DNA of 64,000 bases, taken from Octopus vulgaris. Lineage: Eukaryota. The notes beneath the pieces are model-generated. The model did not search any database and was not told the DNA's origin. It saw nothing but the letters and a program-made list of their open reading frames with translations. Made by a program: the position numbers and the translations under genes. The stretch covers positions 63,054,001-63,118,000 of the forward strand of contig OX597815.1 in NCBI GenBank assembly GCA_951406725.2. The letters run 5' to 3'. Of the stretch, positions 4,484 through 47,700 are shown piece by piece; position 1 is the stretch's first letter; every line of letters starts with the position of its first letter.

Positions 4484-5340
4484 ACCATGGCTTGGCTTCA
4501 CGAACGAAGATCAAGAAGGCTGCCCACGTCGCGTGCATGCACGCTCATGACTGACAAGTCCGATATGAGAAAGGCAGGTCCGTGAACAGTGTCCACAGAC
4601 GAATGTAGCATCCGGTGTGGTGTCAGAGGCGGCTCACGCCTTCCCTCTGCGTCTCTTGTCTTTAAGTGCGTCTCTTCTTTGTTCCTCAAACTTGCTGACT
4701 GCGTTGAAGATCGTGTGGCGCCAGACATCACGGCCCGCAGCCAGGTCTGACCAGCATTTGTGGTTAATATGACATGTTGTTAGAGACTTCTTGAGGCAGT
4801 CTTTGTAGTGCTTCGTCGGAGCTCCTCTCACTCGGTGGCCGGTGGAGAGTTCGCCAAACAGGGAAATCTTTGGAAGACGATGGTCCTGCATTCTGGAGAC
4901 ATGCCCCGCCCATCGGAAGTGGTACTTCAGTAGCGTGGCTTCAATGCTGGGGATCTCGGCCCGCTCCAAGACTTCAATGTTTGTGACAAAGTCACTCCAG
5001 TGAATGTTGAGGATGGTGCAAAGACATCGCTGGTGGAAGTGCTCGAGGAGACGGATGTGACTGCGGTAAGTGATCCAGGTCTCTGAGCTGTAGATAAGAG
5101 TGGTGAGAACCACGGCCCTGTAGACACTGATCTTTGTTTTGTTCTTCAGGCCACTATTGTGCCAAACACGTTTGTACAATCTGCAAAAGGATCTATTTGC
5201 CTTAGAAAGTCTATTGTCAATTCCCCTGTCAATCCTTGCATCGGATGAGATGATGCAGCCCAGGTATGTAAACTGCTGTATTGATTTCAGTTCGGTGCCG
5301 CAGATAGTGATGTGGGGTGAGCGGTATTCCTCTTGGGAAT
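4484..5340 (-). mobile_element. RTE-clade LINE, 5'-truncated 3' end (RT C-terminus plus terminal C2H2-like motif)
   Basis: FTYLGCIISSDARID...KTKISVYRAVVLTTLIYSSETW...FHQRCL..IL.IHW...RWAGHVSRMQDHRLPK...YKDCLKKSL; frameshifted CGHCSRTC...SHERAC; short 3' UTR running into (TA)n. Confidence 0.92.
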
Positions 5341-5700
5341 ATATGCATATATGTATGTATGTTTGTATGTACAGAAGCGTTGGTTTGGATACAGACGTAT
5401 ATATGAGTCTATATGCATCATATAGATGCTTTTGCTCTTAAAATTGTATAAATACACGTCAACACAATAATACTCGCGGACTCACATGCAAACACATGTC
5501 GGTATTTTAGCTGAGAATATCATGTTATCACTAATTAATTGCGCTCCAGCAATGCCCATCCCTAATAACCACACGCACAGACACGCTCACATATACACCC
5601 GCACACACACACAAGTCAGTACGCGAACATAATCCCATAAGCATACACTAGTATGTATAATACAAGCACACACTCACACTCACACACCCAGACCCATACG

Positions 5701-33919: not shown

Positions 33920-34575
33920 TTAGTCTTATTTTCATCACGTGCTTTCACTGTACTACCGAGCGCAGCTCTGTGTACCCTGGGTATGTGCTGTGGTTTGTTG
34001 TGATGCGCTTATTGTTATTGTATTGAAAGTGCTTTATGTAGGATGTATGTGGTGCCGAGTAGTGCTATTTTCTGTATGCTATATATACTTGTTAGTCCTG
34101 GTATTTTTGTTATGTATTTGTCTGAATATTTTTATCATACCTAACGCGCCTACTATGATAGGAATTGTTTCTGTTTTTAGACGCCACATTCGAGATACCT
34201 CTATTTCCAGGTTTTTGTATTTTGATAGTTTCTCCATTCTTTTTAGAGAAACGTTGTCATCTGTTGGCATTGATACATCGATTAGAAGGCATTTTTTCTT
34301 GGTGATCTCTGACAACTATATCCGGCCTATTGGCCTTAATTTCTCTATCTGTGTGTATTGGCATATCCCAGAGTATGATTGCTTTCTCATTTTCTGTGAC
34401 CTTTTCTGGCGTGTGCCCATACCATCTTCTTTCTGTTGTTATTCCATAGTGTTGGTATAGCTTCCAGTGTATGTAGATTCCAACTCTGTCGTGATTGTGA
34501 ATATATTTCTTCTCTGCCGGGATCTGGCATCCAGAGACAATATGGTTTATTGTTTCTTGCCCATTATTGTTTCTT
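33918..34575 (-). mobile_element. R4/Dong-like 3' fragment (CCHC plus RLE), tandem to the previous one
   Basis: ETINHIVSGC...HDRVG.YIHWKL...ILWDMPIHTDREIKANRPDIV; LIDVSMPTDDNV...EKLSKYKNLEIEVSRMW...PIIVGALG; (TAA)n tail. Confidence 0.9.
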
Positions 34576-34618
34576 ATGATCATTATTATTAGTATTATTA
34601 TAATTATAATTACTACTG

Positions 34619-34688
<70 letters not shown>

Positions 34689-35158
34689 CACCACCACCAC
34701 CAAATAGTAGTTGCGGATCCCCTAAAGTTTACAAGCATCATTTTGATTAGTCTATAAGTTTCCTTTTGTGAAATCTATTTCGTATTTATTTCGGGATGAT
34801 AATAACGATAATAAAATGCCAATTGCATAGAAGAGTTTCATTCTTCATTGATCTCGTCGGTGCAATATTGAATTTTAATTATTTATGATATTAAATAAGT
34901 TTTTTAGAAAAAATTAAGCAACATAAATTATTTTTTTAATGAGATATTTGTTCGTAGTCATAGGTTTTAAAACCTGAATAATTCTAAGGAAGAGAGAGAG
35001 AGAGAGGGAGCGTAATGAGTATTCTCGAAGAAAGACCAACAAGAAGTAGAATGGTAAAGGGATTCAATGTGTTTACCTTTTCTCTTTTCTTTCATCCTCA
35101 AGCTAGTGACTTTAATTGCCTTTAATTTTTCTAAAAGATTTTCTGTAAGTAAATTTTA

Positions 35159-44991: not shown

Positions 44992-46670
44992 ACATGGATG
45001 TGATTGCAAAATCCAATCGCGTAAAATTTATTAAATTGAAATGAAATTTCCAAATTTAATGGAAATGTGAATTTTATGAAATTGAAATTTGAATTCGAAA
45101 ACCATTTAAAAAAATTCTCAATTTTCTTCTTTTAAATTTCGATTCGATTTCCTAAAATATTTAAAAATCTGATATGCTATAATATCGATCTGGTTGAACG
45201 TCTAATTATATCAATTCGAAATATCGAATCGACTGAGAAAGAAAAACAATCAGTTTTAGGAAAATATTTTGAAATTTTGTAAGTTTTTTTCTTTTAATTT
45301 ACCTAACATTCTTCATTAGCAATAAATCTTACTATATATTTCATACCATTTTGTGTTGATCTTCCCTGGGCTATTTCTGATCAGCATTCTAACCGCACTG
45401 AAGACAACGACTTCGGAATCCTTTCTACATATTCATGGCAACGGCTGTTGTTATTTTCAGTCGCTCAAGACCTTCCTTCTACTCAGCTTTCTGGATAAAA
45501 CGCAAATATTTGGAAGAATTTTAAAGAAGGCGCTGCTGTTGAGATTTCAGCACCACCTTTATATAGCAATCTTTTTGTTTTGTTCCCATCAACTTTAAAA
45601 AGGAATATATTGCAAAGCAATGCATTGTATATCTATTTATTTATATTTTTTTTTGCATTGATTAGTTTTGTTTTAAACTCCTAGTTCCTGCAACCAGCAG
45701 TCTTTTGTCGCCTAGTTTCTATTACCGAGCTCTCTGTCGCCTAGTTTTCATCTCTCTCTCTCTCTCTCACACACACATACACTCTCCCCTCTCTGTCTGT
45801 CTCACATTTACTTTCTATACCTCAGTTCTGTTTTGTTTCCGAGGTTCAGTACTTTTGTCTCTTGCCTCCTGTCTTCCATACTTTTAGTCATTGTCTCCTT
45901 CCCTCAATACTTCATTCAGTTTCTGATTTTAATTTTCAGTACTTCAGTCTCTCTGTCTCCAATCTTCCATACTTCTGTTCTTCGTCTGTCACCTTCCATT
46001 CTTCACCTCTTGTCTTCAACCATCAATACTCCATTCAATCTCACTGTCTCCTACATTCAACAGTTCAGCCTATCCAATATTTTTCTCTTTACCATTTTTG
46101 TCTTTCTTCTTTATCAATTACTATCATCAAATTTTAAAAGCATCTATATAAACTTTTTTACTGAAATATTATTGTACTCACTCAAATAAAGTATATATAA
46201 ATTCATCAATCTTTGCATATGTCTGTCTAAGTAACTATCTATCTACTCATTTATCTATATATTTATCTGTCTATATGTTATATTGCTACTCTTGTATCTT
46301 TTCCTATTAGACTATCGGCCTGTTTATCCATTGATGTGTATGTCAATCTATTTTTCTGTCATTCCATTAATATTTCACAAGGTACCTATATATCCTCAGG
46401 GTACAATATATATATACAGATGAGTGTATTTTTCCCTTGTTAACAATTAACACGGAAAAAATAGATAAATAGTTACCAGGGTAGCAAAAACTCACACAAG
46501 TAAAGAGGTTGTAACTCCTTGCTTTTAAAGGTAGAAACTTCGGGTTTATGTAGAGATTTTTGTATAATATATAAATAGATAAATGGAGTTTATACCTGCG
46601 TTAAACTCCATTTATACATATATATATATATATGTATATGTATATATATATGTATGTATGTATCTATCTA

Positions 46671-46724
<54 letters not shown>

Positions 46725-46740
46725 CAATACATACATATAT

Positions 46741-47269
46741 TAAATAAAGATGTTTTATTACCGTTATTAATGATATTAATAAGATAATAATAAGGTGGCC
46801 AGTAAGTTCACACCGTTACAGGCATAATGTACGGCAAATTTAGATTCAGTAGGGTATATAATACCACTTGCTAAAATCAGAGCCAAGGCTCGAAAGCCAT
46901 CATAAACTCACAATAAAGATACACACGAGCAATGCAATGAATATATTAGAAATAGGCTTACCTTTGCGTTGAATACATCATGAAGTAAGGTATATTTCAA
47001 TACCAATTGATTTCACCCTCTGTATGACCAACATACTCTGAGATCTTCATCTGAAAATCACATTTTAAGATCTGTTTCTAAAATATTCACTACATTAGCT
47101 CGTGTGCATTCCTTACTTTAAACATTCCGCTCCGTTTAAAAGAAAACTATTGTGAGCAAGAATAAATTTTAAATGAAGATGTACTATTACCGTTATTGAT
47201 AGTATTAATAAGGTAATAATAAAGTATCGAGGAGGTTCACACCATTACAGGCACAATATAAGGCAAATC

Positions 47270-47274
<5 letters not shown>
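46741..47274 (-). mobile_element. Retrozyme/Penelope-like non-autonomous element: 429-bp unit plus ~105-bp terminal direct repeat, with a decayed hammerhead
   Basis: 46741-46845 resembles 47170-47274 (roughly 80% identical by eye); hammerhead relic at 46994-47058; flanked by (TA)n and (GATA)n. Confidence 0.65.
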
Positions 47275-47362
<88 letters not shown>

Positions 47363-47700
47363 GTAAGCATGTATTTGTAATTTTAATCGAACGAATCAAA
47401 CGAATCGAACCCAATACATTTTAAGGTTGGTACTTATTCTATTGGTCTCTTTTGCAGAACTTCTGCGTTACGAAGACGTAAACACATCAACACCAGTTGT
47501 GAATTGGTGGAGGGTAAACAAACACAGACACAAAGGAACACACACGTGTGTTTGAAAAGTTTAACGAAAGTGCTCACACAAACTTCTGTTCTAAAATATT
47601 TAATAACATCTTCATAAAAGATTTCATAACATTTTTAAAAGATATTTTTCTTGAAATCACATTTGCACTTCTAAAACTGTATTTAGCAATCCTCATAGAC

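What the first reader, a model, noticed from the sequence alone, without database searches (positions are those of the whole stretch)
46741..47274. 'Unit-and-a-quarter' element with an internal hammerhead relic: a signature of reverse transcription from a circular or tandem RNA
Seen: about 105-bp direct repeats, 429 bp apart, without TG...CA LTR ends. Between them, the minus strand reads auuuuca-GAUGAA-GAUCUCagaGUAUG-uuggu-CAUACaGAGGGU-GAAA-UCAAUUGG-UA-uugaaau. That gives a damaged CUGAUGA box, a long helix II, GAAA, a near-palindromic helix III (AUCAAUUGGU), a GUA triplet and helix I. Known: non-LTR retrozymes are monomers of a few hundred nt that form circRNAs and integrate as partial tandem repeats. 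Inference: an old cephalopod retrozyme or PLE-derived family with a ~429-nt monomer.
Basis: partly seen in the sequence, partly recalled or inferred. Interest (0 to 1): 0.7.

Follow-up and report, generated by a model that had tools for sequence, protein, structure and literature searches.

The report
Old Penelope-type hammerhead repeat copy
This is a decayed copy of a protein-free repeat, scattered through an animal genome, whose sister copies carry a hammerhead (predicted self-cutting RNA) motif and whose insertion pattern indicates it was likely spread by Penelope retrotransposon enzymes, so it is a new family of a known kind of element.

Summary
The 109-bp direct repeats (83% alike, 429 bp apart) and the minus-strand type I hammerhead are real. 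The element belongs to a dispersed family: 593 candidates, 114 loci examined. Most sister copies read CUGAAGA (not CUGAUGA) and GAAA, then GUA or AUA. The window copy has one core change, C3 to A. Helix II shows a C-G/G-C swap between subfamilies.

The copies carry Penelope-like-element (PLE) marks. 5' ends are scattered and cross the unit junction. 45 of 114 loci have a head-to-head inverted arm. 116 of 168 segment 3' ends fall at two sites about 100 nt apart, mostly against microsatellites. The repeat is the stretch between those two sites, copied twice in a partial tandem; it is not an LTR.

No ORF, multimer or autonomous partner was found. The longest segment is 676 nt and the closest pair is 92% alike, so the family looks extinct. 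A circular template is not shown: 14 of 16 long copies stop just after the upstream cut site, which leans towards a linear RNA. Earlier scan notes describe the same kind of element, in other families, in this genome. New member of a known kind.

The parts
46737..47274 (-). Whole insertion, 538 bp = 1.25 units of a 429-nt non-coding repeat (33% G+C, longest stop-free frame 43 codons); 7.4% from the family majority
47166..47274 (-). Upstream (RNA 5') copy of the repeat, unit positions u1-109; 13.8% from the family majority; its first bases (ATCTA) merge with the flanking tetranucleotide repeat
46737..46845 (-). Downstream (RNA 3') copy of the repeat, the 'tail' between the two preferred family 3' ends (site A about u1-15, site B about u96-115); this copy ends at site B; 5.3% from the majority over 131 columns
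46995..47056 (-). Type I hammerhead motif: helix I 47056-47051 with 47000-46995; core 47050-47044 (C3 is A in this copy); helix II 47042-47016; GAAA 47014-47011; helix III 47010-47002; predicted cut after 47001 (GUA)
47072..47109 (-). 5' arm of a long internal inverted repeat predicted to enclose the hammerhead
   Evidence: (84% over 38 nt)
46919..46955 (-). 3' arm of that inverted repeat
46755..46790 (-). Predicted bulged AU-rich hairpin about 15 nt upstream of 3' end site B (also predicted in the upstream repeat, about 47221-47181)
   Evidence: tail region z -2.7 for the downstream repeat, -0.7 for the upstream one
46618..46736 (.). Compound (TA)n/(TATG)n/(TATC)n microsatellite abutting the element's 3' end; likely the target
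47271..47362 (.). (GATA)n microsatellite abutting the element's 5' end

Best explanation
This is one 1.25-unit copy of a dispersed, protein-free 429-nt repeat family whose majority sequence holds a type I hammerhead core, and it was likely inserted by the reverse transcriptase and GIY-YIG endonuclease of a Penelope-like element acting in trans. Inferred steps: (1) A master copy was transcribed as a longer-than-unit RNA. (2) The PLE protein nicked an AT-rich microsatellite and began cDNA synthesis at one of two internal sites about 100 nt apart (A and B). (3) Synthesis ran for a variable length, often past one unit, giving partial tandems. A second cDNA, often from the other site, gave the inverted arm. 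(4) Here synthesis started at B and stopped 538 nt later at u1, so the A-to-B stretch appears twice and mimics LTRs. (5) The copy then decayed, losing C3. The template was more likely linear, with the downstream hammerhead uncut, than an endless circle. Shown: family, anatomy, end statistics, core letters. Not shown: cleavage, expression, circles, identity of the partner.
For: Family: 593 candidates, 40 scored, 72 matches; 114 loci with 168 segments mapped. 3' ends: 53 at site A and 63 at site B, so 116 of 168 in 39 of 429 positions; only 17 of 168 5' ends lie there. A microsatellite follows 94 of those 116 ends, against 28 of 76 free 5' ends and 100 of 528 background windows. Head-to-head arms occur in 45 of 114 loci: 18 pair an A end with a B end, 1 is B+B, the rest have at least one arm cut short. 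27 segments exceed 440 nt and run through the unit junction. These marks are described for PLEs in PMC8557442 (passages: 5' truncation, partial tandems, inverted 5' copy, tail at one end, (TA)n targets) and PMC11167929 (abstract and main text read, methods in part: two internal RT start sites define the tail; uncut RNA is the main substrate). Hammerhead: C3 in 41 of 47 sister columns; GAAA positions 50 of 52, 50 of 52, 50 of 53 and 52 of 53. On 48 motifs 90.3% of cells pair, against 27-49% for slid controls; pair 19-43 reads C-G in 25, G-C in 8 and U-A in 2. The unit folds as a rod enclosing the motif (z -4.6). The genome holds RT + GIY-YIG PLEs that also end in (TA)n. One family copy is joined directly to a decayed PLE ORF (L133/L218).
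Against: No autonomous PLE with a related pLTR was found. There was no hit beyond AT-rich noise in 44 GIY-YIG loci, and 1 of 30 loci of the L133 PLE family (the chimera itself) carries the unit; Hydra-clade elements were not searched. The tail is about 100 nt, against 30-40 in the cited PLEs. The compensatory change is one subfamily event inherited by several copies; pairs with changes on both sides (6) are matched by 44 of 500 shuffles. Only 20 of 48 motifs keep the whole core and 8 of 48 keep core plus helices. Core columns are barely better kept than the rest (0.93-0.96 against 0.89-0.92), so there is no sign of selection on genomic copies. 52 of 168 3' ends lie outside A and B. Each genome search scored only the best 40 candidates.
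Confidence: 0.85

Rival explanations
1. Classical non-LTR retrozyme cycle: a dimer RNA is cut at two hammerheads, ligated to a 429-nt circle, and reverse transcribed round the circle for more than one lap.
For: 101 segment passes cross the cut position intact and 27 segments exceed one unit. The monomer is rod-like. Size and G+C fit PMC7229834 (passages), which also reports a U.U mismatch at the base of helix II in an active axolotl motif, as seen here. Two segments (L014, L029) run past the upstream cut site.
Against: No segment reaches two units (maximum 676 nt). Among the 48 motifs aligned from 41 loci, only L014 had two motifs in direct tandem, and one has a broken core. 14 of 16 segments that reach the upstream unit's u349 stop within u281-347, against 19 of 116 at the same place one unit downstream. 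No circle was observed.
Confidence: 0.3
2. The copies are just the 5'-truncated 3' ends (pLTRs) of an ordinary protein-coding PLE not yet found.
For: The insertion marks are the same. One copy abuts a PLE ORF (L133). Earlier scan notes reached this reading for other families.
Against: Long copies loop back into the unit with a 429-nt period instead of running into an ORF or another UTR. No PLE ORF lay directly upstream of a copy in 87 of 88 loci screened with two Neptune-like proteins; three other loci had short endonuclease fragments hundreds of bases away. An ORF scan upstream of those copies showed no shared frame. In L133 the ORF stops short of its C-terminus, and sister PLE copies continue into a different UTR.
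Confidence: 0.08
3. TRIM or other LTR-type element with 105-bp LTRs, or a local duplication.
For: The window copy alone has repeat-internal-repeat form.
Against: No TG...CA ends. A TSD-like match was seen in 1 of 51 loci, and it is microsatellite sequence. 5' ends are scattered. Copies run from the internal part through the repeat into a second internal part. The family is dispersed over many contigs.
Confidence: 0.02

Closest known systems
Metazoan non-LTR retrozymes (Cervera and de la Pena 2020, PMC7229834, passages read; Li, Clavereau and Pollet, bioRxiv 10.64898/2026.07.22.740005, parts 1-3 of 5 read: abstract to discussion)
   Same: Non-coding unit of a few hundred nt, low G+C, type I hammerhead with short palindromic helix III, self-paired monomer, no LTR ends; proposed non-autonomous derivatives of PLEs
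   Different: No dimers or multimers with two complete motifs found; unit slightly above the 170-400 nt expressed range; no RNA evidence; family old (median 8.7% from majority)
EN+ Penelope-like element insertions (Craig et al. 2021, PMC8557442: passages, section 11, supplement search hits; Frangieh et al. 2024, PMC11167929: abstract and main text)
   Same: 5' truncation, partial tandem, inverted 5' arm, two 3' ends with a tail usually at one end only, microsatellite targets, hammerhead upstream of the 3' ends
   Different: No RT/GIY-YIG ORF; tail about 100 nt instead of 30-40; partner not identified
PLE hammerhead variants (Cervera and de la Pena 2014, PMC4209133, parts 1-2 of 4 read)
   Same: Type I, palindromic helix III suited to dimer folding, long helix II, compensatory changes between families
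   Different: U.U instead of the usual G10.1-C11.1 pair; 6-bp helix I; 3-bp helix III (more than minimal)

Membership tests
Non-LTR retrozyme | Type I hammerhead core and three helices | tested here: met
   Family majority has the full core; 90% of cells paired; 8 of 48 motifs keep core plus helices. The window copy itself has lost C3.
Non-LTR retrozyme | Non-coding monomer of about 150-450 bp, G+C under 50% | tested here: met
   429 nt, 33% G+C, longest stop-free frame 43 codons
Non-LTR retrozyme | Tandem arrays of two or more units, each with a complete hammerhead (Li et al. criterion for an active element) | tested here: not met
   Longest segment 676 nt in 114 loci; L014 has two motifs, one with a broken core. 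Only the best 40 candidates per search were scored.
Non-LTR retrozyme | Highly self-paired monomer | tested here: met
   z -4.64, 0 of 100 shuffles as stable
Non-LTR retrozyme | Loop 1-loop 2 tertiary contact of canonical hammerheads | not tested
   No descriptor was run
Non-LTR retrozyme | Self-cleavage and circular RNA in vivo | not testable with these tools
   Only contig-level runs were offered
PLE-type insertion | Variable 5' truncation and partial tandem (pLTR) | tested here: met
   5' ends scattered; 27 of 168 segments over 440 nt
PLE-type insertion | Inverted 5'-truncated arm | tested here: met
   45 of 114 loci; absent from the window copy
PLE-type insertion | Two fixed 3' ends (tail) | tested here: met
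   53 and 63 of 168 ends; spacing about 100 nt rather than 30-40
PLE-type insertion | Microsatellite targets | tested here: met
   94 of 116 against 100 of 528 background windows
Autonomous PLE | RT plus GIY-YIG ORF | tested here: not met
   None in the unit; one chimeric junction only
Non-autonomous PLE derivative | Sequence homology to the pLTR of an autonomous partner | tested here: inconclusive
   None in 44 + 30 PLE loci; 6136 GIY-YIG candidates exist, 150 were scored; Hydra clade not searched
TRIM / LTR element | Fixed TG...CA LTRs at both ends | tested here: not met
TRIM / LTR element | Target-site duplication | tested here: not met
   1 of 51 loci, a microsatellite match
TRIM / LTR element | Primer-binding site and polypurine tract | not tested
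   Not searched

The most novel reading that the evidence does not exclude
The family is a fossil record showing that an animal retrozyme-like element was copied from a linear RNA with a fixed 5' boundary at or just after the upstream hammerhead cut, and was primed at two internal sites 100 nt apart. That would argue against the rolling-circle template proposed for animal retrozymes.
Probability: 0.3. Interest if true: 0.55.

Novelty: new member of a known kind. Interest (0 to 1): 0.3.

Why it matters
The origin and copying route of animal retrozymes is an open question, and the PLE link rests mainly on co-occurrence and pLTR homology (bioRxiv 10.64898/2026.07.22.740005). This family adds insertion-footprint evidence: an ORF-less hammerhead unit shows all the PLE integration marks, and the lengths of its copies bear on circle versus linear template. 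The gain is modest. The family looks extinct, the kind is known, and earlier scan notes report younger families of the same kind in this genome that suit experiments better. I found no paper on cephalopod retrozymes in three searches (open-licence library only).

Tried and rejected
Rfam: no hammerhead hit. Isolated motif folding: not significant in 5 of 5 copies. Spliceosomal intron suggested by donor-like (u314) and acceptor-like (u404) letters: 0 spliced copies, 74 alignments span both sites; rejected. Cleavage scar at the first-unit cut site: 7 of 168 5' ends and 3 of 168 3' ends within u265-285, about chance; rejected. The idea that the upstream repeat came from another subfamily: its differences are scattered and private; rejected. 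L133 PLE family as partner: sister copies have a different UTR and hammerhead; not supported. Hydra-1_Obim hammerhead (supplement row) does not resemble this one by eye; no alignment was run. Expression: no RNA holder listed; contigs of four guessed-RNA runs hold diverged family pieces only, no verdict. Three unlabelled runs hold many family contigs that read the majority letters at 47050-47051, with no bearing on expression. A look-up of earlier findings by sequence found nothing.

Full report
Observation. The repeats are at 46737-46845 and 47166-47274: 109 nt, 83% alike, 429 apart. They lie between a compound TA-rich microsatellite and a (GATA)n tract. The hammerhead-like letters are on the minus strand. 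I number the unit u1-u429 along the minus strand from 47274. The copy alone is weak evidence for a ribozyme: Rfam gives no hammerhead hit and the 68-nt motif folds no better than shuffles.

Family. A search of the own genome (2.8 Gb) gave 593 candidates, of which 40 were scored, with 72 matches at 71-100% identity on many contigs. Further searches with sub-segments, patterns and a second copy and direct fetches gave 114 loci with 168 mapped segments, the window included. Two near-identical duplicates of L263 were left out, and two short segments are counted twice because L285 overlaps L126. In the first 41 loci copies differ from the column majority by 4-14%, median 8.7%. The closest pair among 88 loci is 91.7% identical, so the family looks inactive. 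The window's two repeats are 5% and 14% from the majority with scattered private changes, which fits one insertion followed by decay.

Hammerhead. Sister copies read helix I, CUGAAGA, a U.U mismatch, a 3-bp stem, a 3x3 loop, a 5-bp stem, GAAA, a 3-bp helix III round a palindromic loop, and GUA (29 of 48) or AUA (11 of 48). C3 is present in 41 of 47 sister columns; the window has A there, its only core change. Named pairs hold in 90.3% of 899 cells, against 27-49% when slid. One helix II pair is C-G in 25 copies and G-C in 8. That swap marks a subfamily and counts as one event; the number of pairs changed on both sides is not beyond shuffles (44 of 500). Only 20 of 48 motifs keep the full core, about what neutral decay at this divergence gives. 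The monomer folds into a rod whose long stem encloses the motif (z -4.6). Cleavage is inferred, not shown.

Ends. In the hammerhead sense, 53 segment 3' ends lie at site A (u426-15) and 63 at site B (u96-115), 116 of 168 in 9% of the unit. Only 17 of 168 5' ends lie there. A microsatellite follows 94 of the 116, against 28 of 76 free 5' ends and 100 of 528 background windows. 45 of 114 loci have head-to-head arms, 18 of them pairing an A end with a B end. 27 segments exceed 440 nt and run through the unit junction; none exceeds 676 nt. A TSD-like match was seen in 1 of 51 loci, itself microsatellite. The window copy is therefore a B-ended partial tandem whose 5' truncation fell at u1, where five bases match the flanking repeat. 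The 'LTRs' are the A-to-B tail written twice.

Comparison. Craig et al. (PMC8557442, passages) list 5' truncation, partial tandems, an inverted 5' copy, a tail often at one end only and (TA)n targets as PLE marks. Frangieh et al. (PMC11167929) show that the tail lies between two internal reverse-transcription start sites and that uncut RNA is the main substrate. Non-LTR retrozymes (PMC7229834, passages) share unit size, G+C and motif type, and a 2026 preprint argues that they are non-autonomous PLE derivatives. This family works like both. It fails the strict retrozyme test of tandem units each with a complete motif, so I file it as a retrozyme-like non-autonomous element with a PLE footprint.

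Partner. The genome is rich in GIY-YIG PLEs (6136 candidates, 150 scored), including a 781-codon RT + GIY-YIG frame with pLTRs ending in (TA)n. I call it Neptune-like from its CxxC linker, as described in PMC8557442; no tree was built. None of 44 such loci resembles the unit. In L133/L218 a decayed PLE ORF runs straight into u309-u112, but none of the 29 other loci of that PLE group carries the unit, and the close copies continue into another UTR. This is a single chimera, at most a hint of shared machinery. Hydra-clade elements, raised by earlier notes, were not searched.

Circle or linear. 101 segment passes cross the predicted cut intact, so templates were uncut or religated, and ends do not pile up at the first-unit cut (7 and 3 of 168). 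Among long copies, 14 of 16 that reach u349 of the upstream unit stop in u281-347, against 19 of 116 at the same place one unit downstream; L014 and L029 run past. This suggests a linear RNA starting near u275-300, by transcription start or by cleavage of the upstream motif. Against this: the interval was chosen after seeing the data, the stopping rate rises steadily with length (0.19 to 0.47 per 75 nt before that interval), and the 26 added loci gave only one segment long enough to test. Stalling on the second lap of a circle is not excluded. I put linear at about 55%, circle at about 30% and mixed at the rest.

Verdict. Real, and correctly read in outline. It is a new family of a known kind, extinct and without a named partner. 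Earlier scan notes describe 356-, 445- and 494-nt families of the same kind in this genome and a 430-bp unit in another genome. I could not check whether that last one is this family; a look-up by sequence found nothing. Interest 0.3.

Noticed in passing
L101:130-5372 (G000:C16): PLE with an intact 781-codon RT + GIY-YIG frame, an upstream 359-codon frame and 456-bp pLTRs 99% alike; many genomic hits share the 781-codon frame, so the family is likely young.
   Followed up: partly
L223-L251, downstream of the endonuclease end: Older Neptune-like PLEs carry hammerhead-like motifs with a U3-A8 core and a palindromic CCGG helix III, end in (TA)n, and some show an optional tail of about 40 nt. U3-A8 cores are described for Schistosoma PLEs in PMC4209133.
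   Followed up: partly
L133:1489-3112 / L218:2862-4926: Chimera: a decayed PLE ORF cut just before its C-terminus is joined to u309-u112 of this family, possibly by template switching.
   Followed up: yes
L068:1400-1817, L069:1404-1785: Two inversion junctions fall within the unit's internal inverted repeat (u161-166 with u320), suggesting fold-back at that stem.
   Followed up: no
L106 near 3234 (minus strand): A further hammerhead-like motif (CUGAUGA, long helix II) about 500 bp from a different PLE family fragment.
   Followed up: no
window 4634-5437 (-) and 34257-34721 (-): Open frames that read like fragments of LINE-type retrotransposon proteins (recalled resemblance, not tested).
   Followed up: no
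window 46400-46600 and 47384-47560: Two other very abundant repeats flank the microsatellites, judged by contig depth far above that of the element.
   Followed up: no
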